From contig JAAOMT010000134.1 of assembly GCA_016748015.1 (NCBI GenBank), positions 192,757-256,756 of the forward strand: 64,000 bases of DNA. Reading direction: 5' to 3'. Position 1 is the stretch's first letter. Every line of letters starts with the position of its first letter. The stretch comes from Geosiphon pyriformis uo1. Its lineage: Eukaryota; Fungi; Glomeromycota. The notes beneath the pieces were generated by a model. It saw only the letters and a list, made by a program, of their open reading frames with translations. It had not been told where the DNA came from and did not search any database. Position numbers and translations under genes: made by a program. Shown piece after piece: positions 10,698-59,833 of the stretch.

Positions 10698-12475
10698 TGA
10701 GAAGAAAAAGAATTTAAACCTGCACTAAAACTGTCCACTTTGGCCAAAAGACCCAGAACTGTTTCCATCAGACATTTCATGCTGTCTTTCAACTTGGATA
10801 CCAAAGATACATTAAAAGACATTGCTCCTGAAACAACTTCACCACTAGTGGCTGTACCTGAACTCTCACTTATCACTATATCTGCTTCTTGATTCTGTAA
10901 TAAAGGGGTCACCAACGGCTGACATTCAGGACTTGGCTGGAAAACCATTGGCCCAAGTGCATCCAACCTTTTAGCCAGCTTACCCATCTGCTCTGCGAAG
11001 CTGGCAAGACTGTGCTCAAGAGCAACAAACATATCATTGACTTCTGTCAAAACTGGCAGAAATGGCTCCATCTCTGAAGAGGAACCAGATTTTGCCGAAA
11101 CATTATGTCCAGAAAGAGGGGGAAAAGAAAACCCACTAGCAACCTTTGCCCAAGAGAGACCACCAAAAGAGACTGGATGAGCAACTGGAGCTAACCGTTT
11201 GGCATAGATGGCTGCCAATCTGCTCTTATCTGTGTTAGACAGGACTCTATGCAAAAACAAACCTGAGGAAACTTTCCCACCAACCGCACAACCCAATGAT
11301 ATATGGCCTGATTTCTCACACTTGGCACACTTAGCTGAGACAAGACGAAACCAGTATAGATTGGTGCCCCTTAACACTGGCGTGGTTTCCACGATGGCAT
11401 TCAATGACTTAGCAGAATCAAAACAGATGACAGTACACTTAGCCCTAACATATGTAACTGGATGACAATCGATGACACACGTCTTCCCATCCACTGAACC
11501 AATAAAATCCCAGATGTTATGAGCAGTCGTTCCCATTGGCAGAGTATAGAGCAGTGCCCTATGCTGGTTCCTTGCATCCCATGATTCTTTGTCCAAATCC
11601 GATCTAGCTACCCACACAGCATCCTTCCCAATTAAGATTGACCACTTTGTTGCGACCAAATCGGCATGACCTGATTGCTCAAACTCCACCACAGCTTTCT
11701 GCCACAGCCCCACCAATTACATCTTGATCGACTTAATTATTCCAAACTCAGAGAGCGCAGCACGCACAGTCTCAGCTGATGTTCCAACTGGAATTTCTTT
11801 TAACACCACAGCCCAATCTAAGCGACCAGCAGATTTCTTAAGATCAATGTTTACCATAATTTTTGTGTCCTCAGCCTTTTTAGAAGTCTGCGCCAAGCTC
11901 GATTCGGACGTGAACATCCGCTCTGATGATCCCAGCAAATTTTGAAGGGGTAGAGGTCTCCCCAAAACCATTGATACCTGAAAATAATTTCCTGACTGCA
12001 GAAAGTTTCTCTTGAAAAGATTTACCAGTTACTTTTTCCAACCCAATATTCAGAGCAAATAACTTATGTACAGGAATATTAACCAGATTTTTCAAAGAAG
12101 AAAGAAGTTCCAAATGGTCACCTGACAGAACATTACCATCATTATCATTACCCAGAAAATTAATTTTGCCCAGAGGTTTACCCAAAGCTTGCTTAGTAAT
12201 TACCTTGGTATTTGGTTAATGTCTCTCCCTTCCAAAAGATCACCTTCTCCATAATCTACACTAGTTTTCTCAATCAAAAACTTTTTTTCCATGTTTACAC
12301 TGTCGGACTTAGTGGTATTCCCAGCCTCAGACTCCCAAGAACCACCAACCACTTTATTAGACACAACCATTTTTTGAGCAGCACCATCCTTTAGAACACC
12401 ACCTTTCCTCTTTTTCCTAGAAGCAATGTCCTTACTAATAGTATCAGCACTAAAGCTCTTGGCAGACTCCTTCAT
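10694..12475 (-). pseudogene. LINE B ORF1 (RRM-like segments, CCHC knuckle, C-terminal coiled coil)
   Basis: Fragments 12200-12475, 11880-12185, 11717-11971 and 10694-11716. Contains VVLKEIPVGTS..ALSEFG, CAKCEKSGHISLGC and the heptad-like LEHSLASFAEQMGKLAKRL. Confidence 0.85.
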
Positions 12476-13510: not shown

Positions 13511-14005
13511 ATAGTAAGTATTATTTAAAAAAAATTAAAAATAATATATTATTTTATAAAATTATATATATATATATATAATAGTTTTAATATTAAAAAA
13601 AAACACCTATAATTTTAGTTATATTTTTGGTTTTATCTTTAAAAAACAATAAAAAAATATTTAATATCTAATAAATCTTTAATTAATTAAAAAAAATAAA
13701 AAAATAATATTAAGAATTAAATTATTATTATAAATTTATTATAAAATTTACTTGTATTTATTCTTAAATAAAATTATTATTTATTAATTAAATTTTTTAA
13801 AAAATAATTTCAGATTAAAATTATTTTAATTATTATAAAATTATTGTTTTATTTAAAAAAAATGTTTGAAACTATTAATATTTTGTGTTTTTAAATTAAA
13901 AAAACATTTTAAACAATTGCAAAAATAACTTTAAAAAAAATTTAATAATAGTAAATAAATTTTAGATTAGTTTTTAAAACAAAATATATTATATATAACA
14001 AAAAT
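13511..14005. repeat. AT-rich foldback right arm, outer part
   Basis: Inverted homology to 5540-5870. Confidence 0.55.
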
Positions 14006-15294
14006 AAAACTTTTTTCTCTTGTTAATCTCTTGACCATAATGAAAACAAAATATATACCAAAATTATAACTTTCTCTTTTTTTTCCCTGTTTTTTCCCTA
14101 GTTATTTCTTTAAATATATTTTTATTTATTGTAATAAAACCAGTGGACTTGTCTACTGATGGTTCTAGCTTTGGCTTGGCTGGTTTAAAGACTTATTCTA
14201 ATACTAAAAAGAAGCATGTAAAAAGTGTCTACTCTTATGGTATGTCATTTAAAAAGCCAAAAAAACTTGAAACTAGTAATATTGTAGTTGACTTATCTAC
14301 TAATCCTATTAGTTTAGAGAATATTGTGAGCTCTAATATTAAACCTGTAGTGTCTTAAAAAAGCAATATTAATAGTATTACAAATAGTGTTAATGGTCTT
14401 TCAAATATTGAAAATATGAAAAATACAGTCATGAAAGAGACCAGTTATATTGATTTAGATGCTTTGGTGAATAACAAGATAGTAGATAACACTATGCCAA
14501 AAAAAACTTACACTCACACATATGTATTAAGTTACCTGTCAGAAGTGCCAAAATTTGATGTAATGAATAATAATGATAACATATTAGAACTTTTATCTTC
14601 TAAATTTGTTGGCTCTAAGCAATTGCCAATTAATAAGTCATGGATTTTGGAAAAATGTAATTTTGTGCTAGTTAAGTTTTTCATATTAGATATTGAATTA
14701 TCAGCTGTACTTAACAAAACTAATGAGGACAAATTGCTTTTTATTAAAAAAATTTTCTATTATATTGATGGTTTTGAAGAAGCTTTAATTCACTCAAAAT
14801 TTTCTGGCATTATAAGATCTACTTTTACTTTTGAATCAAGTTTAAGCAAAGCAAAAAATCTGGTTATTAGTAAAAAAATTTTGGTTAATAATAATATTAA
14901 GAAGATAAATAGTTGTTTAGATCAAGAAATAATTGTTAAAAAGATTTCAGTTAATTTTTCAAAGTCAGTTGTAAAGTTAGTTTTTTCTAAATTTGGTAAG
15001 ATTGTATTAATCAAAATACAACTGATTGGTTTTTGGCAAAAGGCTCTAGTGGAGTATAAATCATCTAAGATAGCTGATTTGGTCACAACTAAATAATCTG
15101 TGCTTATAAAAAAGGATTCTGTTTATGTAGTGAAAGCAATTGGTAATAAACAAATATAGATGTTCAGAGATCAATATTGAGCTTTGTTGTACACTTTGTC
15201 TATTAGGACTACTGCTTATAATTTTTCTGATTTGTTGGATTTTTATGGTAGGAAAACCTATTTTATTGGTCATAACCTAAATTTATATGTATGT
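14006..15294 (+). mobile_element. LINE copy E, 5' part (ORF1), interrupted by Gypsy F
   Basis: ORFs 14143-14358 and 14416-15096 are homologous to ORF1. The reading NLYVC|DRCAIICF resumes at 33038. Confidence 0.87.
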
Positions 15295-16142
15295 TATTAC
15301 AGTTGATTATTTGGGGTCTCGAATCAAATAACAAACTCGTAACTTGGTGCTCAAAAGCTATTTCCATTGATGATGTTCTGAAAGTGTTGTATCTGAAGGT
15401 TTTGATGGAGTCTTTTGTATAATGAACAGAGATTCAATAGTTGTTTTATCTATAGCTTCCCAGACTTACAAGTCTGTCAATTTTTTTCTCGGCTTAGTGG
15501 CCAGCAATCCTCTGGTAAGTAATCCATATCTTCTGTATGTGTCCTATTCTCTTGCAGAGGTCTTTTACCAGGCAATCCTTGATGTTAGTAATCAGTGCTT
15601 TTAATCAATTGGTTAGTGCACAATAACAAAATCACAGAAAATAAAGAAAATAAAGAAATCTAAAGAAATAAGCCAAGGCGATTTGCAGATTAGTATCCCA
15701 TCAATAACCATAATCAAGAGCTATTGTTCCAGCATGGTTAAGTATCAATTACTATCAACATGAAGTGTTAATAGTGGAGGGTGGATTGAGATATGGAATG
15801 ATTATTTATTTGATAATTGTGTTTTTAGGCTAAGGATTCTGTAATATTGATTCTGTCTTTTTTGTTTTTAACATTACTGCTATATATACATATTTGAGAT
15901 TCCTTAATTCCTCAATTCCTTGTGACAGAAATCTTGGAATTTTTGGAATCCTGCAATTCCTGATGAGAGGAATCTTGGAATTCTGGAATCCTGCGATTCC
16001 TCGTCAGAGAATCCTGAAATTCCTGGAATTCTGCAATTTTTCTAAGAGGAATCCTGGAATTCCATATTTACTACATCTACCTCTGATTGACTAATATTTA
16101 CTGACTAATAATACTATATTTTCCTATATTCTATATGTAACA
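15295..16142 (-). repeat. 3' LTR of F
   Basis: Direct repeat of 32192-33033 with T(A/G)TTAC...GTAACA termini. The PPT (AAAAGGAGAGAA on the minus strand) is adjacent at ~16145-16157. Confidence 0.95.
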
Positions 16143-16161
16143 TTATTCTCTCCTTTTAATA

Positions 16162-16850
16162 TTAAGCTCCGTTGAAATCTAATTCCTTTAATTCTCCTTC
16201 TTGAATTATTTCTTGAACTTCTTTTTTGAGTATTACTTGTGTTATTTGAATTTGTAATTTTTCAAATTGGGCATTGGTTATTTTTCCCAATTGATTACTT
16301 GTAACTGTGTCCATTGCTGTGTTGAGTAAGATTTCTGGTCGGTCTTAAAATCCCATATATAGCCGGTAAATGGCTCGAGCTTGTGTGGTTAGATTGTTCT
16401 TTCTCACAAATTGTTCCAGTTGTCTCAGTATTGTTGTGTCAAATAATCATTTTGTTTTGTTGGTGTACAAATTTTGTATATTTACGTGTTGTTCCAAGTA
16501 GAAATAGCAATAGTTTTTTGGAAATTGTTGCATCCACCAAGTCCAATTTTTTCTAGTAAGTTCTTGGTGTAGTCAGACTATTTGTTGTTCTTTTATGGCC
16601 ACTTTTATCTTGGTCATAATCTTGTCAACAACATTTTCAAGTCTTTTCTGTACTTTGTGTTGTAGTATCTTTGCCGTATTTTTGTAATGAATAGTTTGTT
16701 GATTGATTGTAATTTCTATTTCCTGGTGTTGAATTAATTGAAAAATTTGTTGGGCTAGTGAATAGATATTGTCTGTAATTTCCATTTTTCTGATCTCTTC
16801 TGTTATGTCAACTATGTTTTTTATATATTCTTTTGTCGATCAATTGGACA
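16162..16850 (-). pseudogene. F third coding region (env position), unknown helical protein
   Basis: A single frame broken by a few stops: MEITDNIY...YCYFYLE...ARAIYRLY...QLGKITNAQFEKL...DFNGA*. Confidence 0.7.
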
Positions 16851-16884: not shown

Positions 16885-18222
16885 TCATGGAATTTCATCT
16901 GGTTGGACTAGTATTTTCTGTACTCTCAATTGTGGAATATTATTGGTAGATGCTGATGCTATCTGGTGATATGGTTTCAGTTGATTATCATGTGCTGCTT
17001 TGGCTAAGATTCTGTTGTCTAGTCTTAATTTGTAAGCTTCATTTCCTAGAATTTCTTTTATGTGAAATAGTTTATCCCATTTGGGGTCGAATTTTCCACT
17101 CCATTGTTTTTCCACTTTGGTACAATGTAGTAATACTTTGTCTTCAATCTTGAATTTAACTGGTTTGTCTGGTAGTTGACTATCGTGTCTTTCTTTCTGT
17201 TTTTTTTGTGACTTTTGAATATTATCAGCTGCTCTTTTTTGTTTGTTTTCCAATGTTTTCATTAAGTCATATGTTTTTCTTAGCAATGTTTCTTGAAAAT
17301 TTTCTTCTGTTATTGGTTCAGCTAGATATGTATTAATTTCTCTCTTTACTGGTAATGTTGCTGTTCTACCATATACTAATTCAAATAGTATTGCTTGTGT
17401 AGTATCTTGCTTCATTGTCCAATAAGCAAATAATACTAATGGTATGAACAAATCCCATTCATCCTGGTTTTCTTGGCTGAGTTTGGCAATTGTTTCACAC
17501 AATGTTCTATTAAATCTTTCAACTAGACTATTTGTTTGTGGATGATATAATGATAATAGTGGTCTCTTAATTCCGAATCTCTGGCTTAATTCTGCTAATG
17601 TTCTATTCACAAAGTGGGTTTCTTGGTCTGATAATAGTTCTTTTGGACATCTATGTCGACAGATCAAATCTTGATGAATGAATTTGGCAACGGATTCTGC
17701 ATCCACTCTTTGAATTGCTTTCGCCTCTGGCCATTTAGTGAGATAGTTCATGGCTACTGCTATATATCTGTTTCCTCTGCTGGTAATTGTTAATGGTTCG
17801 ACTAAATCAATTCTAATCTGGTCAAATGGTTGTCCCATTTTGATTGGTCTTAATGGTTTACTGGGTTTTGTTCCTCCTCTTTGCTGACAAGCATCACAAT
17901 TTTGAACATATTGAATAATGTCTGGGTACATTAATGGCCAATAATATCTCTTTCTGGTTCTTTTCATGATTGCTTTTTTGTGAAAATGTCCTGCTGTTGG
18001 ATTTGAGTGCATGTTAAATAATATGGTATCTTTTTCTGACTTTGTAATTACTTTGGTTGGTTGATCTGGATTCCTTCTATTTTTCCGATAAAGTATATTT
18101 TGGTAAGTGATAAAATATTTTGATTGTTGTTTGATACTCTTTTGTTCTGTTTGAAATAAATTCTCCTTGAACTGTTGAGTGGTTATATAATGTTGAAGTT
18201 GTTGATATTTTTGTATGTTCAT
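16885..18222 (-). CDS. F integrase (HHCC, DDE core, GPY/F-like tail) as its own ORF
   Basis: 445-aa ORF containing MHSNPTAGH..CDAC, IRIDLV, LLSDQETHF, YHPQTNSLVERFN and KFDPKWDKLF. Confidence 0.9.
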   Translation of the reverse strand: MNIQKYQQLQHYITTQQFKENLFQTEQKSIKQQSKYFITYQNILYRKNRRNPDQPTKVITKSEKDTILFNMHSNPTAGHFHKKAIMKRTRKRYYWPLMYPDIIQYVQNCDACQQRGGTKPSKPLRPIKMGQPFDQIRIDLVEPLTITSRGNRYIAVAMNYLTKWPEAKAIQRVDAESVAKFIHQDLICRHRCPKELLSDQETHFVNRTLAELSQRFGIKRPLLSLYHPQTNSLVERFNRTLCETIAKLSQENQDEWDLFIPLVLFAYWTMKQDTTQAILFELVYGRTATLPVKREINTYLAEPITEENFQETLLRKTYDLMKTLENKQKRAADNIQKSQKKQKERHDSQLPDKPVKFKIEDKVLLHCTKVEKQWSGKFDPKWDKLFHIKEILGNEAYKLRLDNRILAKAAHDNQLKPYHQIASASTNNIPQLRVQKILVQPDEIP

Positions 18223-18287
18223 CTTTTATTGTATTTTTCATTGGTATTGTTCTGGTTTTTGTTATATTTTTGGGTTTTAAAATGTTT

Positions 18288-19901
18288 TTAGATTTGTTTT
18301 ATTCATGACAAACCGTCAGCATTTCTGTTGTCTTTTTCTTTCTTATAGTGTATAGTATAAGTATATCATAATAGTGCCATTTTCTATCTGGATTGGTGGC
18401 CATCATCAAATTCTTGCTTTTGAAGCGACGTTAACCCTTTATAATCCGTGTATATATCAAACTTTTGGCTCAAGTATTTGTTCCACTTCATGACTGCCCA
18501 ATAGATTGCCAAATGTTCTAGTTCTGGTGTTCTATAGTTCTTTTCGGCTGGTGTTAGACCTTGGCTGGCATAAGCTACTGAATGTTCTCTGCCATCTGGT
18601 TCCTTCTGAGATAGTACTGCTCTCAATGCTTGGCCTGAAGCATCGGTGGTAATAATAAATGGTTTGTTGTAATCTGGGTAGATCAGTACTGGAGCTTGAA
18701 TGAGCTTTCTTTTCAAAATATCAAAAGTTTCTTGTTGACTTTTTGTTCATTCATATTTGGTATTCTTGGTTTGCAGATTATTGAATGGTTGAGCTATCTT
18801 TGAAAAGTTCTTTATAAAGCATTGATAATAACTTGCAAATTCCAAGAATGATTTCAATTCAGTCACATTGGTTAGTACTGGAAAGTTCTTTACTATCTCT
18901 ATTTTCTCTGAATCCATTTTGATGCTGTCTTTACTGACTATATGTCCCAAGAATTTTAGTTCTGTCTTGCCAAAGAAGCACTTTGTTGCATTTAACTTTA
19001 GTCCTGCTCTTTTTAGTCTTTCAAACACTTGTTGAAGATGATGAAGATGATCATCAAATGTTTTTGAGAATACATTGGTGTCATCCAAATATACAATTAC
19101 TGATTTCCACAATAAGCCAGTATAAACAATTTCTATTAGCTATTGGAAAGTGGCTGGGGTGTTGGTCAAGCCAAATGGCATCACTTCAAATTCGAAATTC
19201 CCTTCTCTAGTGGTGAATGCTGTCTTCTCTTTGTCAGCTGAATTTATGGCTACTTGCCAATAACCACTATCTAAGTCTAATGTTGAGAACCATTTGTTTC
19301 CGCCAAAAGCATCAAATAATTTCTGTATTTGTGGAGTTGAATAGCTGTCTTTACGAGTTATACTGTTGAGTTTTCTGTAATCCACACAAAATTGGATTTT
19401 CTCATTCTTTTTATGGACAAGTACTACTGGTGACAATCATGGACTCATTGATAGTTGAATTAGCCCATTGTCAAGCATTCAGTTTATTTCTTGACAAATA
19501 ATCTTGTGGCTGGCTGGCAGCACTCTGTATGCTCTTTGTTTGATTGGCATTGCATCTCCAGTCTTGATCTGATGCTGGATGATGTTAGTTCGGCCAAACT
19601 CATTTTCACTGGCAAAAATGTCATTGAAATTGTTGAGCAACATCTTGAGCTACATACATTGGAGTGGATCTAAGTTTCCCATGTTCATTTGTTCTAATTG
19701 TTCTGGTTAGAACAAATAACATTCATCTCGTCCATAGATTGTTTGTGATGTGATGTCAACATATCCACAAAGTTGTGGAAAGTCTGGAATGGGGTTTGGT
19801 GGTTGGTCTTCTATTTCTATGGTTAAATATCTGATGGTAGTTCCTTTTGGTATGTTAATGATATTGCCAGTGTTGTTGTAGATAGGAATTTTTATGCAGC
19901 T
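18288..19901 (-). pseudogene. F pol 3' part: RT and RNase H
   Basis: SPVVLV..FCVDYRKLN, LDLDSGYWQ, MPFGLTN, VYLDDT, TTDAS..AVLSQ, ELEHLAI and NADGLS, followed by a stop. Confidence 0.92.
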
Positions 19902-19905: not shown

Positions 19906-20583
19906 TGTTACGGGTTGAAGTAACAAGCTAACGGATAGCAAGAGAGAACAGTATTGTATGGTGATGGAAATAAACAAAGAAGAAATTACAATAAGGGAGC
20001 AAATTGAATAAGTAGGAATTCAATGTGCATGATCAGTCTCATAAAAATCACAGTCGCTAATCTTTTCTTAAATCTAAAGGTAGAAGAATAGTCCATAATT
20101 GTCAACAAGATAACACTGCTGCTATTATTCTATGCCTCAACTCGGCGATTCTTAGAATCAATAACAGGTATCATTGTACTTTTTAATCATTTTTTTATTC
20201 AATAAATTACAAGAGCAAGCCAATTGCTTTTCAGGCTAATTCTAACAAATACAAATCAAGAAGGGGAAAAGATAAGATATGTGAATGCCAACAAGTAGAT
20301 ACTTGAAGATAAGAAAAGGAGAATAAGCAATTATGAGAGGAAGTAATTAATATTGTTTATTTTGTTACTTTGATCATGTCTTTCTACAGCTAAGGGAATC
20401 ATCACTTATATAGCTATCTAAAATGGTCAATGACCAGGTCAATGATCAGGTCAATGATCAGATCAATGGTCAGGTCATTGATTAGGTCAATGATCACTAT
20501 CTAAAAATAGGGTGGCTAATTATATGACATCAGTGGCTAATACATGTGATAATTAATAAAAACTATGTGTTTCAACCATAACA
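19906..20583 (-). repeat. 3' LTR of G (6 copies of a 12-bp U3 repeat)
   Basis: TGTTAC...ATAACA termini. The PPT (GGAGAGGATGA on the minus strand) is at 20584-20594. Confidence 0.95.
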
Positions 20584-21245
20584 TCATCCTCTCCAAAGAG
20601 ATTGAGCTCTGGCGAAATCAAACTATTTATGGGATAGTCTATGTAAAGGGTTTTGTCTAACTCAAAACTAACTAGTCTGTTGAAGTCTTTTGTGGATAGA
20701 ATATATAGTACTTGAGACAAAATAAGCTTTGTATCCAAGAGACCAAATCTTTGTATAAGAGTTCTGGCTCTTCTTGCAATGGTCAAAACTCTTGGGACAT
20801 CTAAATGTATAATGCCCAAAATTTCCACTTGTATCTCTGAAGTTGTTTTCTTCATGAGCTTCATGTCTTCTATGATTTCACCAAGACAACCATAGAGTTC
20901 TAGTTGTCTTCCATATGACAAGTTTTTGTCTATGGGCAAGATTTCTTGTATTGTTTTTCCAATTGTGCTGGAAGGTAAAAGTATCACTGCTGTTATGCTT
21001 TCCAGCAGGTATTTATCCATTTTGCCACCAATTCTTTCTCTTCTGGTAGTTGTTTTCTTTGGTCTAATAACAGTGTGAGTTCCACTGTTGTCTGTTATAG
21101 TGGTTTGTTTTCCGATAGTCAGAGTAGCATTTGGATAGTTTTTAATCCAGTACTCATGGAGAGTATAGAAAGCATTTTGAATGTTTGATCCAGGAAATAA
21201 TTGTTCATGTTGATTGAAGATACCTCTGTTTTGGGAATAGTGCAT
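20553..21245 (-). CDS. G ORF3, intact 230-aa protein of unknown function in the env position
   Basis: The ATG lies 10 nt after the integrase stop (21256). The ORF stays open through the PPT and 31 nt into the 3' LTR. No signal peptide or TM helix is evident. Confidence 0.75.
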   Translation of the reverse strand: MHYSQNRGIFNQHEQLFPGSNIQNAFYTLHEYWIKNYPNATLTIGKQTTITDNSGTHTVIRPKKTTTRRERIGGKMDKYLLESITAVILLPSSTIGKTIQEILPIDKNLSYGRQLELYGCLGEIIEDMKLMKKTTSEIQVEILGIIHLDVPRVLTIARRARTLIQRFGLLDTKLILSQVLYILSTKDFNRLVSFELDKTLYIDYPINSLISPELNLFGEDDVMVETHSFY

Positions 21246-21255
21246 TTATTTATAT

Positions 21256-22568
21256 CTAATTTTTGCTGATCATTTGGGTCGGTATTATCACAACAAGTAA
21301 CCAATCAGGTCGTTTGTGATATTTTTTGAGTCGCGTGCCATAAACAGGGCAATCACTGAATATTGTTCTATATTAATCTTGTAAGATATAAGAACCATTG
21401 TTCAAAACTTTGTTGACTATAAAAGATCTTTTCCACTGGCTAGAGAATTTATTACCATAGACATTGTCTCTGTCTGAATGGTATTCCAAAACTAAGTCAC
21501 CAACACTTAAGAAAAGTGTTTTATAGGTCTTTTTCTTTTTGAGCTTCTCTTGGAACTGTTTTATCTTTTCAAAGGCAATTATCCGTGCTTCTACCAATGA
21601 GTCAAGAATGGTACCTAGTCTTCTTTGCAAATGTCCTTGTAATCTCCTATTGTTATTTCTTCAAAAGGTATTGTTTCTATATCCATTTCTATTGATAAAG
21701 TTGCCATTTGTCCATAGAGCAGATAAAAGGGTTCATAACTTGTTATGTCATGATTCACAGTTCTGTAAGCAAACAAGGCTGAAGGCAATACTTTGTCCCA
21801 TAGGTTGGTTTCTTCACTGGTTTTGGCTAAGGTTTCACATAGTGTTCTATTAAAATGTTCCACTAGGTTATTTGTTTTGGGGTGATAAGGGGAAGAGAGT
21901 TTATGACATATTCCCATTTTTCTGCAAAGTTCTTCAACCAGTGTACTGAGAAAAGCTCTTCCTCTGTTAGATAAAAGTTTTTTGAAACAGCCATGGTGAC
22001 AAATGATATCTTTATAAATAAAATTGGCAATTGAGACTGCTGTTTGATCTGGGGTGGCTTTTGCTTCTACCCACTTTGTAAGATAGTTGGTAGCTGTAAT
22101 AATGTATCTGTTGCCATCAGGAGTTACTGTTAAAGGTCTAACAATATCTATACCAATTCTATCAAATGGTTGACCAATAGAGATTGGATGGATATCTTCC
22201 TTGCGATTGGGTTTTTCTCTTCTTTGGCAGGTATTACAGATTTTGATGTATTCAGCAATGTCTTTTCCCAAGGTAGGCCAATAATAGCGAACTAAAGTTT
22301 TCTGAATTGTTTTTGTTTTTCCAAAGTGTCCAGCTAATGGATCAGTGTGCATATTGTAGATCACAATTTCTCTTTCTTCAAATCTAATGACTCTCTGGGG
22401 GCAGTCAGGATCTTTTCTATTTCTTTTATATAATTGGTTCTGGCAAATCAAATAGAAATTTGATTGTTTGTGCAAATGTTCTCTTTGCTGTCGAGTATAG
22501 TCTGGCGGGTATTGTCCTTTACCCAAAAATTTCATTAAAGCAGAGTAGTTGTCCAAGTCCATTATCAT
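21256..22568 (-). pseudogene. G integrase, separate ORF (one frameshift, one stop)
   Basis: MHTDPLAGH..CNTC, IGIDIV, YHPKTNNLVEHFN and KFSSQWKRSF. Confidence 0.9.
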
Positions 22569-22621
22569 GTTTGTTTGTGGGGAAGTTACAAATAATTAAG
22601 TTGGTTTGGTTTGAGAGGGTT

Positions 22622-25327
22622 TTACTATCACTGGATGGTAAGTCTGGAGAGAGCATTGGTGTTTTGATGATTAGCTCCTTTGTGGTGTTGAATGTCATAG
22701 TCGAATTCGTCCAAGTGGAGTATTCAGCGAGTTATCCGTTTATGTTCCAGGTTTCTTTTGTTGTGTAGCCAAACCAAAGCTTGGTGATCTGTTACCACCA
22801 AAAATTTCACACCCTTAAGATATTTGTCCCAGTAGCTGGTAGCCCAAACTACTGCTAAGCATTCCTGCTCAGTAACTGAGTAGTTCCTTTCTGCTGGTGT
22901 GAGAGTTCTACTGGCATATGCTACAGTGTGTTCTCTGTTATCTTCATCTTTTTGGGAAAGAACAGCACCAAGTCCATAGCCAGATGCATCAGTGTGGAGG
23001 ATAAAAGGTTGATCCAAATTAGGTTGCATGAGGATGGGTTCTGTAACCAGTTTTTCCTTCAGAATTTCAAATGCTTTTTGTTGATGAGTGCCCCAGTGAT
23101 AATTGATGTTTTTCCTAAGTAGCTAATTGAGAGGAGCAGCAATTTTGGAGAAATCCTTGACAAACTTGCGATAATAAGAGGCCAAACCAAGAAAAGAGCG
23201 TAGTTCATGAACATTCATTGATTGTCTAATGTTTTGAACTTTTTCAATTTTGGCTGGATCAGGGAAGATTCCATTTTTTGTAATAAGATGGCCAAGGAAC
23301 TGGGTGGATTGACATCCAAAGAATGATTTGATTGGATTGATCTTGAGACCAGCATTTCTAAGGAGGTCAAAAACCTTTTGCAAATGTTCAAGGTGTTCAT
23401 CCCAGGTTTTTGAGTACACCATTATGTCGTCCAAGTAGACTAGAACAAAGTTTTTTTTTACTGATTCAAATACTTTGTCCATTAAGCGTTGAAATGTGGG
23501 AGGAGCATTTGTGAGACCAAAAAGCATGACTGTAAATTCGTAGGTACCATACTTGGTGATGAAGGCAGTTTTCTTTCTGCTTTCTGGATCCATCTCTACT
23601 TGCTAAAATCCAGCAGTTAAGTCAATGGTTGAGAAGAAAGTGGCACCATGGAATTGGTCTAGCATTGCATCAATCTTGGGAAATGGGTACATGTCTCTTT
23701 CAGTAATGGCATTTAATTGGAGATAGTCAACACAAAAGCATAAGATTCTTTTTTTCTTGGATACCACTACAACTGGGAATGCCCATTCACTCTTGGTTTC
23801 CTGTATAAATCCAAGAGTTTTCATTCGGGTTATTTCTTTTTTGATAAACTCATCATTGTGCCAGTTGGATTAATAGGGCTTCAAATGGATGGGGCGAGTT
23901 TCTTTGGTGATGATGGTGTGTTGTATCACATGTGATGTCTAGGAGGTTCACCTTCTTTTGAAATAACTGGGCTGTTTCTAGCCAGTAGATTTTCAATGTC
24001 TACTTTTCTTTTTTCTGGAGAGGGTTCTCTTTGTTTTACAACCAGTGATTGGATTTCAGGTGGTTCGTTTTCAAAGGACTTTTGGACTTCTTTTATTTCC
24101 TCTTGGGGTATCAAGCTGATTGGTTTCCAATCTTTGTAATAGATCAGACAGGACATGCATTCATCGCTAGGAGAATACAATGGTTTGTCGCACCAGCACC
24201 AGGCACAAGGACCATGCCACCAATAACTGTATTTGGCTTTCTTGCCTGGCTTTCTGTTAAAAGTTCTTCTGAGCATGTCATAATAAGGCCAGCAGATCAG
24301 CTTGCCATTGACAATAATTCTTTCTTTATCTGCCTTGACATTATCCAGTGGTTTGCCATTGCTAATAAAGATTGTATAAGCGAGTTTAGCAGTTTCTTTT
24401 TGTTCTTTTTGTTCTTCTTCTTCCTCACTTTCTTCATCATCTGATTCATCTGATTCATTTTCTTCTGGGCTCTGCTTGGATACTAGGGGAGTTGTCCAAT
24501 GGCGACACTTAACCACAATGAGTTTTTCACCACATCTGATAGTTAGTTTACAGAGTTCATAATTAAGTAAAGCCTTTGCTTTCTTGAGCCATTCATTGCC
24601 AACAATGATGGTGTATTCTTTTGCTTCAGACACTTCCATATCAGTTTCAATGCTGATACCATTGATGTGAACAGGAATAGCTTTGGCTATGCCAAGCCCT
24701 TTTTTCTTATTACCATGCACATTGGTCATTGGTCATTGGTCATGTGGATGGTTCATCAATTTTTCTGCCAATTGCTTCAAGAAAGTGTTTGACAATAACA
24801 CTAACAGATAATCTACTGTCTAGGATCAAATCAATGAAGTAGCCAGCCACTTGGACTTTACAAATTAGAGGAATGACATTGCTATTGTCAACAAGTTCAG
24901 CTTGGCGAGAGCATTTGTTGGTTTTGAGTGTCTTTTTCTTTGGAATCAGGGATTTGTGAAGATCTTTTCTGAATTGTGGATGGGTCATCAATTAGCCAAA
25001 GGTTATATGTGCTGGGGTTTCCATAAGGTCTTTGACAACAGAATAGAGACCGGATTTTTGTACTATTTCTGGGGGTTCCAACTTTGGAGGGTTCTTGAAA
25101 ACTTTGGCTTTTGGGGGCTCATTGTTGTCAGCAATTGATGTAGAAGTTTTATTGGGGTTTAGAACAAAATCAACTTTGGCTTTCTTCTTCTTTCTTGTGG
25201 ATTCAGAGGGGTTGATTGCTAATTCATTCATGTCATGGTCATCATCAGTTAAGTTAAAAGTGTAAAAGGGGTTTTCTTCTGGTTGGCTTGCACTCTTACC
25301 CTTTGGAGGTGCGCCTACCAGTTTAAA
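22622..25327 (-). pseudogene. G pol: protease, acidic/Cys linker, RT, RNase H (no dUTPase)
   Basis: LILDSRLSVS, IIVGNEWL, WAFPVVVV, VYLDDI, HTDASGYGLGAVLSQ and NALSR, followed by TGA TAG TAA. Confidence 0.9.
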
Positions 25328-26831
25328 GGCTGATAAACAGTGGCTTCAACTAGGAGATTCTCTCCAAAAAATTGATGTTGGCATGATTGGGTCTTTGGTT
25401 GGACACATTGTTGTTGTTAATCCTGTTGTTCTGAGCATCATTGTTTCTGGGAACTGGTGGAGGCAGTAGAGAATTGTTGCAATCTCTTGAAAAGTGTCCA
25501 GTTAATCCACAGTGATAGTATACAGGTGGGCCACGATTTTGTTGTCTTTGATAAGGTGGTTGTTGGGGCTGATTGAAGCGTGGTTCAAATCTGGGTCTTT
25601 GTGGTTGCTGATTTTCTCTGACTGCTTGGGCTAAGGGTTCTAATAACCGAGCAAGATTTGCTGTGAGTCTGTCTATTAACTGTTTATTTGGATCTTGAGT
25701 GTGAGTGGCAAAAGAAGTAGCAGCCATTTAAGAGACAGGAGCCATGACAGGAACAGGAGCAAAAACTGATAGTGTAGATCCCAAGTGCATCTTTTGGTTG
25801 TTTTCAATTCTTTGTGCTAATTCAATGGCCATATCTATGGTGGGATTATTTTTCAGGGCCAGGAGGGGCCAAAGAGCATATAATAGATCAGTTCTTAATC
25901 CTTTTGTGAAAGAGTGAATTTTCTGCTCTTCTGTCCAATTTCTTCCAGTGTCTACTTGTTTAATTAACTTTCTGATTGCTTTGGCGTATTTGGTTACAAT
26001 TTCACTGGGACCTTGGGTTCTTTCCAATTCCATATGCCATTTTGATATTAATATTGGGATTCTGAACTTGTTTTCAACATTTGCTGGTGTCCATCTAACG
26101 ATTTTTTGCTGGGCATTGGCATCTGTTTCTTGTGAGAACCAAGTAGCAGGAGATCCTTGAAGGTAGCCACCGACAATTTGGAATTTGTACTCATCATTAT
26201 ATTGATTGGCTGTAGTGGCTCTTTTAAAGTCATCCAACCATTCAATTGGATCTTGTGCATCATTTCTAAATAATGGTATTGGGGTGTTGTTTCTTCACTC
26301 TAGAGCAGTTTGTATATCTTGGAGGACGGCCAGAATGTTTGCTTGCATGGGGTCATTAGCCATTGGTTCAGGGGTAACTGTTTGTGTAGACGAGTCTGAT
26401 TCGCTTGATAAAAGATCAAAAACAGGGGCAGTTTGGTAGCTTTCTTCTTCTGTTTCAAAGAAAGTTTCAGTTGCTTGATGGGCAGCAATCCAAATGTGGA
26501 TTTGATGATTCAGATATTCGAAATCAAGAGGCTGTTGTTTAAAGGTTGCAGAATATAAGAGCTGATTAATACTGTTGTTTCTTTCTTCAAAGTCGTTTTC
26601 AAAATAAGCTTGGTCAAAGTAATAGGTTGTATAAGCTGTGTAGGTTTCAGCTGAATGCTCATTCAGGAACCAGTTCCAAAAGTCTTGGAATTGTCTACTG
26701 GATTGTTCTTCAAGGGGGAAGCAGATCAAGCAGAAGGGCAGAGAATTAAGTTCAATGAAACTTTGGTCGTTTCTGTTGTGTGCTGCAAAGTGTTCTTCTG
26801 ATTACTGTGGCAGATATGAGTAATCACCCAT
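25315..26831 (-). pseudogene. G gag (N-terminal extension, capsid, zinc knuckle)
   Basis: ATG at 26831 just after the PBS. Contains DAQDPIEW.DDFKRA, QGPSEIVTKYA, FTKGLR and YYHCGLTGHFSRDC. Confidence 0.88.
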
Positions 26832-26859: not shown

Positions 26860-26878
26860 ACCTCACAGGGAGCACTAC
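26860..26878 (-). promoter_or_regulatory. Primer-binding site of G, probably tRNA-Ile(UAU)
   Basis: T(A)GTGCTCCCTGTGAGGTT lies just inside the 5' LTR. It is complementary to ..CCTCACAGGGAGCACCA, which resembles eukaryotic Ile-TAT 3' ends; the tRNA identity is inferred. Confidence 0.7.
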
Positions 26879-26883
26879 TTTTA

Positions 26884-27525
26884 TGTTATGGGTTGGAGTA
26901 ACAAGCTAATGGATAGCAAGGGAGAACAGTATTGTATGGTGATGGAAATAAACAAAGAAGAAATTACAATAAGGGAGCAAATTGAATAAGTAGAAATTCA
27001 ATGTGTGTGATCAGTTTCATAAAAATCACAGTCGCTAATCTTTTCTTAAATCTGAAGGCAGAGGAATAGTCCGTGATTGTCAACAAGATAACATTGCTGC
27101 TATTATTCTATGTCTCAACTCGGCGATTCTTAGAATCAATAACAGGTATCGTTGTACTTTTCAATTGTTTCTTTATTCAATGAATTACAAGAGCAAGCCA
27201 ATTGCTTCTTAGGCTAATTCTAACAAATACAAATCAAGAAGGGGAAAAAATAAGGTATGTGAATGCCAACAAGTAGATACTTGAAGATAAGGAAAGGGAA
27301 ATAAGCAATTATGAGAAGAAGTAATTAATATTGTTTATTTCATTACTTTGATCATGTCTTTCTACAGCTAAGGAAATTATCGCTTATATAGCTATCTAAA
27401 ATGGTCAATAACCAGGTCAATGATCAGGTCAATGATCACTATCTAAAAATAGGATGGCTAATTATATGATATCAGTGGCTAATACATGTGATAATTAATA
27501 AAAACTATGTGTTTCAACCATAACA
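26884..27525 (-). repeat. 5' LTR of G (3 copies of the 12-bp repeat)
   Basis: Direct repeat of 19906-20583, 36 bp shorter. Confidence 0.95.
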
Positions 27526-27529
27526 ATAG

Positions 27530-32171: not shown

Positions 32172-32190
32172 ACTTCACAGGAAGCACCAA
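32172..32190 (-). promoter_or_regulatory. Primer-binding site of F
   Basis: TTGGTGCTTCCTGTGAAGT adjacent to the 5' LTR, the same type as in G. Confidence 0.75.
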
Positions 32191-32191
32191 A

Positions 32192-33033: not shown

Positions 33034-33037
33034 ATGT

Positions 33038-35085: not shown

Positions 35086-36670
35086 TGTTACAGATAATTA
35101 TTTGAGATCTGAAAACAAATAACAAATCTGTAACTTGGTGCTTAATATGTAATATGGTAAGTAATATCTAAAGATTTTTGTATTTGAAGGTTTTAGTTAA
35201 GTCCTTTGTATAATAAACAAAGATTCAATGTTAATATTTTGGTGTAATTGTTTTTAGTTTTTTCTCCAACCCTCAAGTTAGTATGCATTGTTATTCATAG
35301 TTATTTAAAATAATTATTTTGTCAATTTTTTTTTCAGCTTAATGACCAGTTCTCTAATAAGTTATTCCTTAATTTCAAGTGTTTACCCTTATTTCTGGGT
35401 CTTTTACCAATTTTTTTTAATGTCAATAATTTCTCATATTTTAATTTTTCAATCAATTAGTAAACAACACAACAAAAAAAAATAAAATAAAAAATAAAAT
35501 AAAATAAATGAAAATAAAATTAATATCTCATTAATAGCCATGATTAAGAGTTATTGTTTTAGTATAGTTAAGTGTTAGAGTCTATTAATATGAAGTGTTG
35601 ATAGAATAGAAAGGATTAATATTCTTTAATCAAATGATAATAACATAGATTCAAGTAATAATTAATAATTTATTAATATGTGATATGGATTTGAATTGCT
35701 TCTAACTGGATGTTTTTACTATAAATTTTAGCTGAAGATCCTGTCTTTTCTGCTTTTAATACTCTTACTATATATATATAATTGATGTTTTACAAAATTT
35801 TACACATTTGTGAACAATGTGTTATAATTTCTTAAGCAATGTGCCATAATTTACTAATATTGCTTATATTGTTAAACAATGTGCCATAATTTACTAGCAA
35901 TGTACTCATGTGTTCAATACTATTCTTTTATTGATCTATTTTTCTTATTTGTTTTTTTACTATTCTCTTGTGCTTTTTCTATAAGTAATATTATCTTATC
36001 TTTTTTTAATATTAAGCTTTGTTAAAATCTTCATTTTGAATAAATTCTACTACTTTTTTTTCTAACACTATTTGTTCAACTCTGTTTTTTATTTTTTCAA
36101 CTTGTAAGTTGTTTATTCTTTTTTATTGTTTAATGGTTATTGTTTCCATTTTTGGGTGTAGTAATATTTTTGGATAATTTTGGAATATGGTGTATAGCCA
36201 ATAGATTGTTTTAATATCAAGTAATAAGTTTGTTTTCTTTTCAATAAAGTCTTTAATTTGCTGTATTATTTCTTGATTGAATATTTTTTTGGATTTTTTG
36301 GTATATAGTTCTTGAATATTTAGCTTTTGTCCTAATTAATAGTAACAATATGGTATTGAAAGTTGTTTTGTTCAGTGTTTTCAACTTTTTTTCATTAGCT
36401 TTTCTGTTGAAATAATAATAAATATTTTTCCAAAAGTATTTTTTATTTTTTTATTATTATATCTGACCAATGTTTTATTAAGTTTAGTGGTTGCTAATAT
36501 GGTGTATTTCTTGCTTTTTTTCTTTTTTTGGTGTTTCAATAACAGATTGTTTGGTAGTTAATAACAATTTTTATATCCAATTGTTGTTAATTTACAGCTT
36601 GGAATAATTGTTAAGCCATTGAGTGGATGTATCTGAGATTTCTATTTTCTGTTTGTTGCTTTTGTTGTAT
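35086..36670 (-). mobile_element. Truncated F-related Gypsy: 3' LTR (35086-35990), PPT and ORF3 remnant
   Basis: The TGTTACAG start and the U5/R region are homologous to the F LTR. The adjoining 36020-36670 is homologous to 16160-16800. Confidence 0.8.
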
Positions 36671-38490
36671 TATTACAGATGATTATTTGGGTGGTTAGAA
36701 TAAATAACAAACTTGTAACTGGTGCTCAATAGCTAATATGGTTGATAATTCTGAAGGTTTTGGTTAAATTCTTTGTATAATAGACAAAAATTCAATAATT
36801 GTGTTAGTAGTCTTTTGAAATTGCAATTTCATCAAATTTTTTTCTTTAATGTAGTAGCTAGTTTATTTTAATAGTTATGTCCTTCTGGTAAGCTATCTGT
36901 AATTTTTTAAACTCTATACTCTTCTTTTGGAATTTTTTATCAGGCTATTCTTGATGTCAATTACTCAATGCTTAATTTTTTTAATCAATTAGTAAATTAA
37001 CAAACAACAAAAAAATAAAAAAAATAAAAAAAAATAAAAAAAATAAAAAAATAAAAATAAAAATTAGTATCTTATTAATAACCATGATCAAAAGCTATTG
37101 TTCCAGTGTAGTTAAGTATTGACTTCTATTAACATAGAATATTGATAAAGTAGAGATGATTTAATATTCTTTAATTAAGTAATAATAACATGGATTCAAG
37201 TAGTAATAGATAATTTATTGATATGTAATATAGATTTAAACTGCTTCTAACTGAGTGTTCTTGCTATAGATTTTAGCTTGGAAATTCTGTTTTTTTTGCT
37301 TCTAACATTCTTGCCATATATACATAATTAATGTTCTATGAGATCTTACACATTTGTAAGCAATATGCTATAGTTTTTTGAACAATGCTTATATTGCTAA
37401 GTGATGTGCTCTAATCTACTGACATTGTTTACATTGCTGAACAATGTGTTATAATTTACTAACATTGTTTACATTGCTGAGCAATATGCTATAATTTGCT
37501 GATATTGCTCACATTGTTAAGCAATATACCATAATTTACCAGTAATATGCTTATGTGCTCAATACTTTTCTTTTATTGGTTTATTTTTCCTATTATTTCT
37601 TTTGTGTTCTTTTTTATAAGTAATATTATTTTCTCTTTTTTAATATTAAACTTCATTAAAATTTTTATTTTGAATTAATTCTACTATTTTTTTTTCTAAT
37701 ACTGTTTATTTAACTTTAGTTCTTATGTTGTCTACTTGTAAGTTATTCATTTTTTCTCATTAGTTAATAGTTATTGTTTTCATTTTTGAATGTAGTAGTA
37801 TTTTTGGATAATTTTGAAATATAATATATAGCCAATAGATTGTTTTAATGTAAAGTAATAAGTTTGTCTTCTTTCCAATAAAGTCTTCAATTTGTTGTAT
37901 TATTTTTTAATTGGATATTTTTTTAGATTTGTCAATATATAGTTTTTAAATATTCAGCTTTTGTTTTAACTAATAGTAACAGTATAATATTGAAAATTGT
38001 TTTGTTTAGTGTTTCTAACTTTCATTTGTTAGCTTTTCTATTGGCACAATTATAGGTATTTTTCCAAAAAGTATTCTTTACTTTTTCTATTATTTTATCT
38101 AATCAATGTTTTATTAAGTTCAGTGATTATTAATATGGTGTATTTTTTGTTTTTCTTCTTCTTTTGGTGTTCCAATAGCAGATTGTTTGGTAGTTAATAA
38201 CAATTTTTATATCCAATTGTTATTAATTTACAGCTTGAAATAATTGTTGAACTATTGAGTAAATGTGATCTGGAATTTCTATTTTTCTGTTGTTGCTTTT
38301 GTTACATATACTGTGTTTTTTTTATATTGTTTTGGTTAATTACTTTGACATATTTATATCAATAATTATAATTGGTTCTAAATCTCATAGAATCTTATTT
38401 GGTTGGACTAATATTTGTTGTATTCTCAGTTGTGAAATATTACTGGTGAATAATAAGCAGAATCAAATTTAGATATAATGGTTTTTAATT
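36671..38490 (-). mobile_element. Second truncated F-related Gypsy: 3' LTR (36671-37625), ORF3 remnant and integrase tail
   Basis: Near-duplicate of 35086-36670. 38360-38480 matches the F integrase tail (DLEPIIII). Confidence 0.8.
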
Positions 38491-58001: not shown

Positions 58002-58208
58002 TTTAATATTTTTATAATAATTCCTTTAAAAATACACAAACATAAAAACAAAAATAGTAAATAATTACAAAAAACACTCAAACCCAAAAACAAATAAAAA
58101 TCCTATACCCAAAAATAATTTTCTTTATTTCTTGTTAAATTTTACTTATTAATTAGTTATTTTATCATGATTATTCCTCGAAATATTTAACAAATATCCC
58201 AAAAATTA

Positions 58209-58871
58209 ATGTTAGCCTTAAAAACACTTTTTAACTTAACTATAATGATTAATAAAAATCAAATTAATTACACTCAAAAAAAAACCACAACACCAATAGT
58301 AAATAATTCTCAGAATTATTATCTTTATAGAAAAAAAACAAGAAATTATTCTGTAAATCAATTACTAGAACTTTTGAAGCAAGCACTAAAAGAAAACTTT
58401 TTATTTGCTCCTATTAACATTCTACCAAATACCACAATTCAACAAAAACTTCTACTACTTTTTAATGAACAGAACAATAAACATACTCTTATCTATAGAT
58501 ATTTTTATATTAGAAAAACACTTTATGAATAAAAACTAAAACTTGAAACAAAACACATCACTTCTAAAGCTATACAAAAACAAATTCACAATGAATTTAA
58601 GACAACAGCTGGATTAACAAACACTTGCTACAAACTTAGAGCAGTATTTAGACTTTATAATCTATTTAATACTTGTGGAAATGTCCTACAAAATCCAATA
58701 CTTATTCAATGAAGATTCAATATATTAGAAAGCTTACAGAACTGAAATTTTAACAATTTTCAGATCAGATCACTTCAATTATCTTGGATCACTATCTTAA
58801 CATTACAGATAGTATTTGAACTTCGATGGAGCTTATTCTTGAGGAGGAAATTATGTTACCAGTAGAATTTA
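58209..58871 (+). pseudogene. H ORF3 (env position), related to ORF3 of F and G
   Basis: YRYFYIRK, LRAVFRLYNLF and YIRKLTELKF..DQITSIIL. It runs into the 3' LTR. Confidence 0.65.
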
Positions 58872-59829
58872 GCTATTAATTAGCATGAAATTACCCTCAT
58901 AATTCCTATTATTAATTAACATATATTATTATTATTTCGATTATCACTTATTATTTAATCAAATTATTAAATATCCTTATTTAATTAATAATCCGATTTG
59001 TACTCTAGAAATTAAGATGATCAAATTACACAATACCCTGAACCATTTAATATAGTCAAAATTCACTGAAATTAATGAAAATTGGCCGAAATAATCAAAT
59101 AGTTCAGTGAAATAACTTGTAGTTCACTAAAATGTATCTTTAGTTCACCCAAATTATAGCAAAGAGAAAAGTGCAAGTTCAAAGACTAGTATTACAACAA
59201 GTTGTATAAAAGAAAAGCTTCTCTCTTCAAGAAAATGTATCTTCTTATAGTAGCTTACTATAGCATCCTACTTTAGATATCTTAATTGAAACAAATCATC
59301 TTTTATACATCTTAAATAAAAATTAAAATATTCAAAAACCAAATTCTTAAATTATTGCACTTGAAATTTTCTTAACACAACTAACGTTTTGAAATTGATT
59401 AGCTACCAATTTCAGTAAACTGTTAGTGACTCCAGACCTGAATAGAAAACGTTTTCCCTTGACAAAATTCTATTTCATTTACATTTTTTTTATTTTTCTT
59501 TTCTTTTTTTATTACAATCATTAAGGTAGCCTACAGATAAGATTCTTGTAGAAGAGTTAACTTTTACAGCAAAGTAACTACACATTTTTTAGTAAGCTTC
59601 CAGATGAGCAATTCCTGAGAAAGAGTTGACATTTATTACAACATAACTACACAAAATAACTGACAAAGAATTGGCTATTTCATTTATAAGCCTAGCAGTT
59701 CAAATTATAAAAGATAATTTGAAGATAAATTCAGTTATTGAAGATTTAACTGCTTTTAGAAAATGTGAAATTAGCAACAAACAAACATTAACAACATTCA
59801 AAAAAAGAGACCAAAAACCTCTAGTAATA
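58854..59829 (+). repeat. 3' LTR of H
   Basis: TGTTACC...GTAATA termini. Confidence 0.93.
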
Positions 59830-59833
59830 TTAT

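What the first reader, a model, noticed from the sequence alone, without database searches (positions are those of the whole stretch)
20553..21245. Conserved, unannotated third ORF in the env position of all Gypsy families here
Seen: G has an intact 230-aa ORF between integrase and the 3' LTR, although its gag and pol are broken. Similar regions occur in F (16162-16850), H (58209-58871) and both truncated copies (36020-36670, 37650-38330). By eye they share a Y(F)YLG-like motif (F YCYFYLE, H YRYFYIR, G LYGCLG). They also share a basic helix (F ARAIYRLY, H LRAVFRLY, G ARRARTLI) and a short helix (F LGKITNAQFEKL, H IRKLTELKF, G LYILSTKDFNRL). No signal peptide or TM segment is visible, so it does not look like Env. 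Inference: a soluble helical accessory protein, possibly nucleic-acid binding or anti-silencing. The G similarity is the weakest of the three.
Basis: partly seen in the sequence, partly recalled or inferred. Interest (0 to 1): 0.85.

Follow-up and report, generated by a model that had tools for sequence, protein, structure and literature searches.

The report
Hidden extra gene in fungal retrotransposons
Decayed Gypsy jumping genes, likely of the fungus Geosiphon, carry an unnamed extra gene where retroviruses keep env; its protein is predicted to be small, soluble and helical, is likely made from its own internal promoter, and likely binds the element's own DNA to regulate it.

Summary
A real extra gene, but this copy is not intact. 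G's 230-codon frame is open (0 of 5,000 shuffles reach 200). Its true form is a 218-aa ORF from 21208; a 1-nt frameshift puts the first ~20 residues off-frame (0 of 120 sister proteins share them). All close relatives are Geosiphon pyriformis gene models. F, H and both truncated copies form one family (H-F profile P=6.5e-6) under coding constraint. It reaches further Geosiphon families and a metagenome Gypsy contig (L001) with an intact copy behind integrase. G's membership is likely (~0.75) but unproven: hhalign and HMMER fail, while a custom end-to-end alignment (z 4.2-6.5), matching predicted helices and a TATA box at -40 to -46 in G, F and T2 support it. The model (pLDDT 78) has a helix-hairpin head, a basic linker and a helical domain. 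There is no membrane segment, Pfam family or clear fold match; ParB and DUF1016 hints stay weak. Best reading: an internally promoted, DNA-binding regulator of its own LTR, working like foamy-virus Tas (0.4). The scan noted similar third genes on other genomes.

The parts
20553..21208 (-). G extra ORF in its family form (218 aa in sister copies); this copy has a 1-nt frameshift near 21184-21187; last 9 codons lie in the 3' LTR
21188..21245 (-). Off-frame N-terminal ~20 codons of the reported 230-aa ORF (not part of the family protein)
   Evidence: 0 of 120 sister proteins carry it
21247..21254 (-). TATAAATA box 46 nt before the family start codon, just after the pol stop (21256-21258); candidate internal promoter (inferred)
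   Evidence: pol end
20584..20609 (-). GAGCTCAAT motif and polypurine tract inside the ORF tail; a like motif precedes the tract in F, H and L001 (one-base variant in L002), read in another frame in F, so a DNA-level signal
19906..20583 (-). G 3' LTR (TG...CA) with a 12-bp x6 array (20425-20496) just upstream of the LTR's single TATA-type box
26884..27525 (-). G 5' LTR; 4-bp target duplication CTAT; G is inserted into F between dUTPase and RT
21256..26801 (-). G gag, protease, RT-RNase H and (after a stop) integrase, all broken
16156..16785 (-). F extra ORF (sister copies also have an in-frame ATG at the 16815 position); four internal stops; TATA boxes at -42/-40 (16820-16827)
58167..58874 (+). 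H extra ORF (235 aa from this start, 221-239 aa in sister copies), one internal stop and a frameshift near 58706, tail in the 3' LTR; no TATAWAW in the 170 nt upstream
36009..36645 (-). T1 extra ORF, decayed, F-like; its upstream DNA is cut about 25 nt before the start by T2's LTR
37640..38282 (-). T2 extra ORF, decayed, F-like; TATAAAAA at -44 (38319-38326)

Best explanation
The region is a frameshifted copy of an extra retrotransposon gene between integrase and the 3' LTR; it likely belongs to one fast-diverging family shared by these Gypsy elements, is likely transcribed from a TATA box just behind pol, and likely encodes a soluble DNA-binding regulator of the element's own LTR. Shown: the ORF, its slot, its sister copies, the F/H/T family with coding constraint, an intact copy in a metagenome contig, TATA boxes at -40 to -46 in G, F and T2, and no membrane segment. 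Predicted: a helix-hairpin head, a basic linker and an all-helical C-terminal domain. Inferred: a short mRNA from the internal TATA ending in the 3' LTR; nuclear import through the basic linker; binding of the helical domain to the family-specific repeat array in front of each LTR's TATA box; activation, perhaps against host methylation, through the acidic tail. This is how foamy-virus Tas works, without detectable kinship. Sub-odds: real gene 0.95; G homologous to F/H 0.75; internal promoter 0.6; DNA-binding self-regulator 0.4.
For: Open frame beyond chance. 130 Geosiphon relatives at E<=1e-3, and 20 of the 120 listed are exactly 218 aa; 30 of 120 gene models also carry integrase sequence. 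Coding constraint: F vs T1/T2 codon-position identity 0.53/0.67/0.47 and 0.54/0.73/0.48, like integrase (0.60/0.75/0.54); between H subfamilies 37 of 94 N-half but 17 of 107 C-domain columns differ (P=2e-4), while private decay is flat at 0.10-0.12. Locus L001 holds RT-RH, integrase, a 316-nt spacer, an intact 230-aa ORF, PPT and LTR-like DNA. TATAWAW at -46 (G), -42/-40 (F), -44 (T2) against a background of about 1 per kb. G link: global profile alignment z 6.5, and z 4.2 without the PPT-constrained tail (0 of 150 shuffles each; 34 unrelated controls max z 2.7); same order of predicted helices and hairpin. DNA-binding hints: ParB-type DNA-binding domains recur over the whole C domain (Spo0J Z 3.6, 88 aligned, rmsd 4.1; KorB Z 3.2, 95 of 114, rmsd 5.1; SopB Z 3.1, 94 of 114, rmsd 4.9); DUF1016_N in 10 of 55 H members, best E 0.0028. 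11 of 13 representatives have pI 7.8-9.9, and 12 of 13 have a net acidic last 25 residues. G, F, T and H LTRs each have their own repeat array; 2 of 7 G-array 8-mer sites lie within 150 nt of G's start (0.19 expected). Tas precedent: PMC4929722, passages.
Against: No standard tool links G to F/H: hhalign P 0.23, 0.2, 0.44, 0.37; HMMER 16 of 300 and 169 of 1,000 shuffles score as high; F vs G alone z 0.4. The F+H profile retrieved no G protein among 112 hits apart from one chimeric gene model. The custom alignment uses my own uncalibrated gap costs, and G's model has pLDDT 38. The ParB Z-scores lie within background (best overall 4.3). A profile of 75 YhcG N-termini does not match (P 0.13-0.37). 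The TATA box is absent in H and T1, and at -126 in L001 (3 of 6 copies at the shared spacing). The array echo was seen after the fact, is weak in F (1 of 9 sites, 0.17 expected) and absent in H and T2; whole-LTR k-mer sharing shows no enrichment in any of 4 elements. The two metagenome proteins are acidic (pI 5.4, 5.9). The acidic tail overlaps the purine-rich PPT, which forces Glu codons.
Confidence: 0.4

Rival explanations
1. An RNA-binding accessory protein, like Rev or C. elegans Cer1 CERV, that helps export, translate or package the element's RNA. These elements need extra expression control because integrase and this ORF both sit behind stop codons.
For: Basic linker with a shared P-Y-x-R/K-K-type stretch in H, T and the metagenome proteins; stand-alone integrase ORF in G, F, H and L001; CERV precedent (PMC10309623, abstract). 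The Atlas listed one closterovirus coat-protein cluster at 0.92 for H, a lead only.
Against: No RNA-binding family or fold match. CERV comes from a spliced mRNA, whereas here a TATA box stands at a fixed distance in G, F and T2.
Confidence: 0.25
2. An anti-silencing or integration cofactor acting by protein contacts (on the host small-RNA or methylation machinery, or on integrase), not by reading its own LTR.
For: Related AM fungi silence TEs by CG methylation and small RNA (PMC8647823, passages). G's two LTRs differ by 37 transitions and 0 transversions. The ORF diverges faster than integrase (H-F ~22% vs 44.5%). No chromodomain was hit in G, F or H.
Against: No direct evidence; the C-terminal domain is the conserved part between subfamilies, which fits a fixed biochemical job more than an arms-race surface.
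Confidence: 0.2
3. G's extra ORF is unrelated to the F/H/T family and was acquired independently in the same slot; function as above or other.
For: hhalign and HMMER not significant; F-G z 0.4; G also differs in lacking dUTPase.
Against: End-to-end colinear score z 4.2-6.5, with N and C parts each contributing (2 of 150 and 1 of 150 shuffles); same helix/hairpin order; same TATA spacing as F and T2 and the same tail frame as H and L001.
Confidence: 0.25
4. An Env-like or cell-to-cell movement protein.
For: Env position and sense orientation only.
Against: No hydrophobic segment in 13 of 13 representatives (4 of 20 decayed 218-aa G copies reach 1.6-1.8); 0-3 cysteines; soluble model; no Env family in Pfam.
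Confidence: 0.05

Closest known systems
Sense additional ORFs between pol and the 3' LTR (aORF-3S, env-like) of plant Ty3/Gypsy elements, and the antisense aORF-3R such as maize Grande gene23 (PMC7264820; main text read)
   Same: Slot between pol and 3' LTR; present in many copies of a family; no known homologues; Grande's gene has its own promoter and a nuclear product
   Different: Fungal host; sense orientation yet no membrane segment; runs through the PPT into the LTR in G, H and L001; candidate TATA directly behind pol
'add. ORF' of unknown function in fungal chromodomain Gypsy elements (PMC2864245; passages)
   Same: Extra ORF of unknown function in fungal Gypsy elements; the paper also shows dUTPase between PR and RT (PosPlaTy3-5), as in F and H
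   Different: No chromodomain hit here; I could not compare sequences (figure not seen, supplements not opened)
Foamy-virus Tas/Bel1 (PMC4929722; passages)
   Same: Small regulatory gene just before the 3' LTR driven by an internal promoter; DNA-binding part plus C-terminal activation domain (here inferred, not shown)
   Different: Retrovirus with env; no sequence link detected (no foamy accessory family in Pfam scans); binding and activation untested here
CERV of C. elegans Cer1 (PMC10309623; abstract)
   Same: Novel non-Env accessory protein of a Ty3/Gypsy element
   Different: CERV comes from a spliced mRNA and exports RNA; sequences were not compared directly
DUF1016_N (YhcG N-terminus, PF17761) and ParB/Spo0J/KorB DNA-binding domains
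   Same: Weak HMM hits over the same H stretch (residues ~109-173; also phrog_23683, best E 8e-5); low-Z structural overlap of the whole C domain
   Different: Far below Pfam's cut-off; profile-profile test not significant; Z within background

Membership tests
Ty3/Gypsy LTR retrotransposon (host element G) | gag-PR-RT-RH-IN order between LTRs with TG...CA, PBS, PPT and target duplication | tested here: met
Sense additional ORF (aORF-3S) | Lies between pol and 3' LTR, same strand | tested here: met
   (tail overlaps PPT and LTR start)
Sense additional ORF (aORF-3S) | Present in many copies of the family, not a one-off capture | tested here: met
   130 G, 86 F and 190 H relatives; 30 of 120 G gene models also carry integrase sequence
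Sense additional ORF (aORF-3S) | Purifying selection | tested here: inconclusive
   Shown for F/T and H; for G no sister DNA was available and protein variation is dominated by decay
Env / env-like | Signal peptide and transmembrane anchor | tested here: not met
   max KD19 1.37 in 13 representatives; no membrane helix in the model; no dedicated signal-peptide predictor was run
Env / env-like | Spliced subgenomic mRNA | not testable with these tools
   no RNA data could be laid on the locus
Foamy-virus Tas/Bel1 | Sequence homology | tested here: not met
   no such Pfam family listed at E<=1; that Pfam holds one is recalled
Foamy-virus Tas/Bel1 | Internal promoter in front of the gene | tested here: inconclusive
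   TATA at -40 to -46 in 3 of 6 copies, -126 in L001, none in H and T1
Foamy-virus Tas/Bel1 | Binds LTR and internal promoter and activates them | not testable with these tools
   only a weak, post hoc motif echo in G
DUF1016_N (PF17761) | Pfam gathering score 32.8 bits | tested here: not met
   best E 0.0028 in 10 of 55 H members; 12.9 and 15.8 bits in the members shown; hhalign P 0.13-0.37
ParB/Spo0J/KorB DNA-binding fold | Structural superposition of the helical domain | tested here: inconclusive
   Z 3.1-3.6, 88-95 aligned, rmsd 4.1-5.1; domain not folded alone
F/H/T extra-ORF family (this work), for G | Significant profile match | tested here: inconclusive
   standard tools no; custom global alignment yes
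Chromovirus chromodomain | Chromodomain at the integrase C-terminus | tested here: not met
   no Chromo family in any sense frame of G, F or H at E<=0.01

The most novel reading that the evidence does not exclude
A lineage of fungal Gypsy elements has evolved a complex-retrovirus layout by its own route: integrase as a stand-alone gene, plus an internally promoted transactivator with an undescribed helical fold. That protein diverges in step with a family-specific repeat array in each LTR, lets each family switch itself on against host methylation, and helped LTR elements fill about 41% of the Geosiphon genome.
Probability: 0.25. Interest if true: 0.8.

Novelty: new variant of a known kind. 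Interest (0 to 1): 0.5.

Why it matters
Most extra ORFs of LTR retrotransposons have no known origin or function (PMC7264820). This gives a defined non-Env family with an intact natural copy (P0373, L001), a confident model and a candidate promoter, so function can be tested directly. It also shows that at least 406 Geosiphon 'hypothetical proteins' (130 + 86 + 190 hits, overlap not checked) are likely transposon cargo rather than lineage-specific fungal genes. If it is a self-activator, it would help explain the LTR burst in this genome (41.2% LTR; PMC11952901, passage).

Tried and rejected
No whole genome was held, so no DNA-level dN/dS over G copies was possible. No RNA holder listed; this is no evidence on expression. 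The two-copy complex prediction for P0373 gave no answer (score 0.01); this is no evidence either way. AlphaFold2 of the G alignment failed (pLDDT 38) and was not used for fold searches. Foldseek against PDB and viral models found nothing at E<=1e-3; VIA-align found 0 chains at Z>=5 in 48,161 and in 992. This does not show the fold is new, and the head domain was barely tested. Atlas: no usable hit for G; 25 of 30 hits for H were unnamed clusters, the top three mostly Mucoromycota at 0.92-0.93, which I could not retrieve. PDB sequence searches gave importin-5 at E 0.009-0.02 and FliT at E 0.04, taken as helical noise, and nothing for G. The DUF1016_N lead was not supported by hhalign against 75 YhcG N-termini. 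A recalled resemblance to DUF3102 and to an expanded AM-fungal hypothetical family found no support (not listed). phrog_23683 could not be identified (0 of 5 genomes, 0 of 14 controls). Viral contigs: no relative of G or of the H clade and no PPT-motif match. Plasmids: 6 records at E 2, noise. A general LTR-to-internal-promoter motif-sharing test was negative in 4 of 4 elements. Literature searches listed no paper that, by title or abstract start, describes this ORF; one search returned 0 papers. The Geosiphon genome papers were not listed there and were not seen, and TE libraries such as Repbase could not be searched.

Full report
Setting. The window is a stack of nested, decayed retroelements. 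The closest proteins of all three extra ORFs are Geosiphon pyriformis gene models (all 120 listed of 130 for G, 86 of 86 for F, all 120 listed of 190 for H), so the DNA is likely from that fungus or a close relative. No whole genome was held. Three Gypsy elements carry RT. G lies on the minus strand with LTRs 19906-20583 and 26884-27525 and target duplication CTAT. It is inserted in F (LTRs 15297-16142, 32194-33033). H lies on the plus strand (LTRs 49927-50900, 58856-59831). F and H carry dUTPase between protease and RT; G gave no such hit. T1 and T2 are truncated F-like ends.

Observation. The 230-codon frame is there and is not chance: 0 of 5,000 shuffles give 200 open codons. It runs through the polypurine tract and 9 codons into the 3' LTR. 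It is not intact. 82 of the 120 listed relatives carry an N[YC]FL.QNIQ start, 0 of 120 carry the window's MHYSQNRG start, and 20 of 120 are exactly 218 aa. The window holds MNNYFLDQ in another frame from 21208, so a 1-nt frameshift (mutation or assembly slip in an A run) joins an off-frame head to the real body. About 13 lesions in 5.5 kb of G gag-pol (my count by eye) predict about 1.5 in this ORF; one is seen. The copy was not spared.

One family for F, H and T. F matches T1 and T2 (E 5e-30, 4e-23). H matches F over 179 columns (P=6.5e-6), and 0 of 300 shuffles reach either HMM score. An F+H profile found 112 proteins among 1.84 billion representatives. Of 10 looked up, 8 are Geosiphon models, including two further divergent families, and 2 are unnamed metagenome proteins. 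One of these is encoded on L001: RT-RNase H, stop, integrase with its own ATG, a 316-nt spacer, an intact 230-aa ORF, PPT and LTR-like DNA. At about 30% identity to H it comes from a distinct element family, likely of another organism. Coding constraint is visible. F vs T1/T2 identity by codon position is 0.53/0.67/0.47 and 0.54/0.73/0.48, like integrase (0.60/0.75/0.54); protein-guided alignment favours this pattern somewhat. Two H subfamilies differ at 37 of 94 N-half columns but 17 of 107 C-domain columns (P=2e-4), while private decay is even.

Is G in the family? Standard tools say not detectably: hhalign P 0.23, 0.2, 0.44 and 0.37; HMMER 16 of 300 and 169 of 1,000 shuffles as high. The F+H search returned no G protein except inside one chimeric model. 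A global profile alignment of my own gives z 6.5 against the 27-sequence family profile and z 4.2 without the PPT-bound tail (0 of 150 block shuffles each). The N part reaches z 2.7 (2 of 150) and the C part z 3.5 (1 of 150); 34 unrelated comparisons reach at most z 2.7. H-G alone gives z 3.5 and F-G alone z 0.4. The low-confidence G model (pLDDT 38) has the same order of elements as the good model: helix, hairpin (one extra strand in G), linker, then seven helices against eight. Slot, length, tail frame and TATA spacing agree. I put homology at 0.75.

Protein. AlphaFold2 on P0373 with 54 sequences gave pLDDT 77.7 and pTM 0.66: helix 7-20, strands 25-29 and 34-38, a disordered basic linker, and a helical domain 82-217 at about 90. 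There is no membrane segment in 13 of 13 representatives and no Pfam family above cut-off. Fold searches gave no clear match. ParB-type DNA-binding domains recur at Z 3.1-3.6 across the whole domain, within background. DUF1016_N (10 of 55 H members, best E 0.0028) and phrog_23683 (9 of 54, best E 8e-5) hit the same H stretch. A profile of 75 YhcG N-termini did not match (P 0.13-0.37). These are hints.

Expression. TATAWAW lies at -46 in G, -42/-40 in F and -44 in T2 relative to the family start codon, close behind the pol stop, against about 1 per kb in the elements. It is at -126 in L001 and absent in H and in T1, whose upstream DNA is cut. I looked for this after an earlier scan note mentioned a promoter-like box. 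G and F integrases share only 43%, so the shared spacing is not recent copying. G, F, T and H LTRs each have their own repeat array, upstream of a TATA-type box (read from coordinates). In G, 2 of 7 array-word sites in 5.7 kb lie within 150 nt of the start (0.19 expected); F has 1 of 9 (0.17 expected); H and T2 have none. The whole-LTR version of the test was negative in 4 of 4 elements. This is post hoc and weak.

Mechanism. Most likely (0.4): a short mRNA from the internal TATA yields a nuclear protein whose helical domain binds the element's own U3 array and raises or protects its transcription. Foamy-virus Tas works this way from an internal promoter before the 3' LTR (PMC4929722, passages). 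Rivals are an RNA-binding export or translation factor like CERV (0.25; PMC10309623, abstract), a protein-contact anti-silencing or integration cofactor (0.2; silencing context in PMC8647823, passages), and Env-like (0.05). Every functional step is inferred.

Comparison and novelty. Extra ORFs in this slot are known in plants (PMC7264820, parts 1-2 of 3 read), in fungal chromoviruses (PMC2864245, passages; figure and supplements not seen, and they may bear on novelty) and in rotifers (PMC5408684, search listing only). Nine searches listed no description of this family by title or abstract start; the Geosiphon genome papers and TE libraries were out of reach. The scan has noted similar third genes on two other genomes; by sequence it found no look-alike of P0001 or P0373, so I cannot say they are the same family. 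Verdict: a new variant of a known kind, interest 0.5.

Noticed in passing
window 22520-22570 (G), 18220-18300 (F), 56540-56620 (H); L001 772-800: RNase H ends at a stop just after the NAD(A)LSR-type motif and integrase follows as a separate ORF, with its own ATG in G, F and L001 (a likely decayed one in H). The scan has noted this on other pieces of the genome.
   Followed up: partly
window ~27750-28150 (F) and ~54400-54710 (H): dUTPase domain between protease and RT in F and H; none detected in G.
   Followed up: partly
window 19906-20583 vs 26884-27525: G's two LTRs differ by 37 transitions and 0 transversions in 642 aligned bases, pointing to strong methylation-driven or RIP-like C-to-T decay; LTR divergence would overstate age.
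   Followed up: partly
window 36645-36675: T1 begins about 25 nt before its extra-ORF start, directly after T2's LTR end. A nested insertion is simplest, but the point is close to where an internal-promoter transcript would start.
   Followed up: no
window 20584-20609, 16143-16170, 58828-58855; L001 3090-3116; L002 5-32: A GAGCT(C/T)A(A/T)T-type motif precedes the polypurine tract in G, F, H and L001, with a one-base variant in L002, and is read in a different frame in F, so it is likely a DNA or RNA signal.
   Followed up: partly
window 26865-26883 (G) and 32175-32193 (F): Similar primer-binding sites in G and F; they resemble a methionine-tRNA primer site (recalled, not tested). Target duplications are 4 bp (CTAT for G, likely ACAT for F).
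   Followed up: no
window 1-12200, 14000-15300, 33035-34900, 46900-49900, 59800-63200: Several decayed LINE-like elements with endonuclease and related ORF1 pieces, nested with the Gypsy copies.
   Followed up: no
window 43124-46398: Likely host genes: mitochondrial-carrier exons (43124-44786, minus) and an APH/phosphotransferase-family ORF (45441-45941, plus).
   Followed up: no
window 27526-28840 (F), 53300-54200 (H), 23926-24500 (G): Long Cys/Trp-rich inserts between protease and RT in all three elements, with no Pfam hit; possibly undescribed zinc-binding domains.
   Followed up: no
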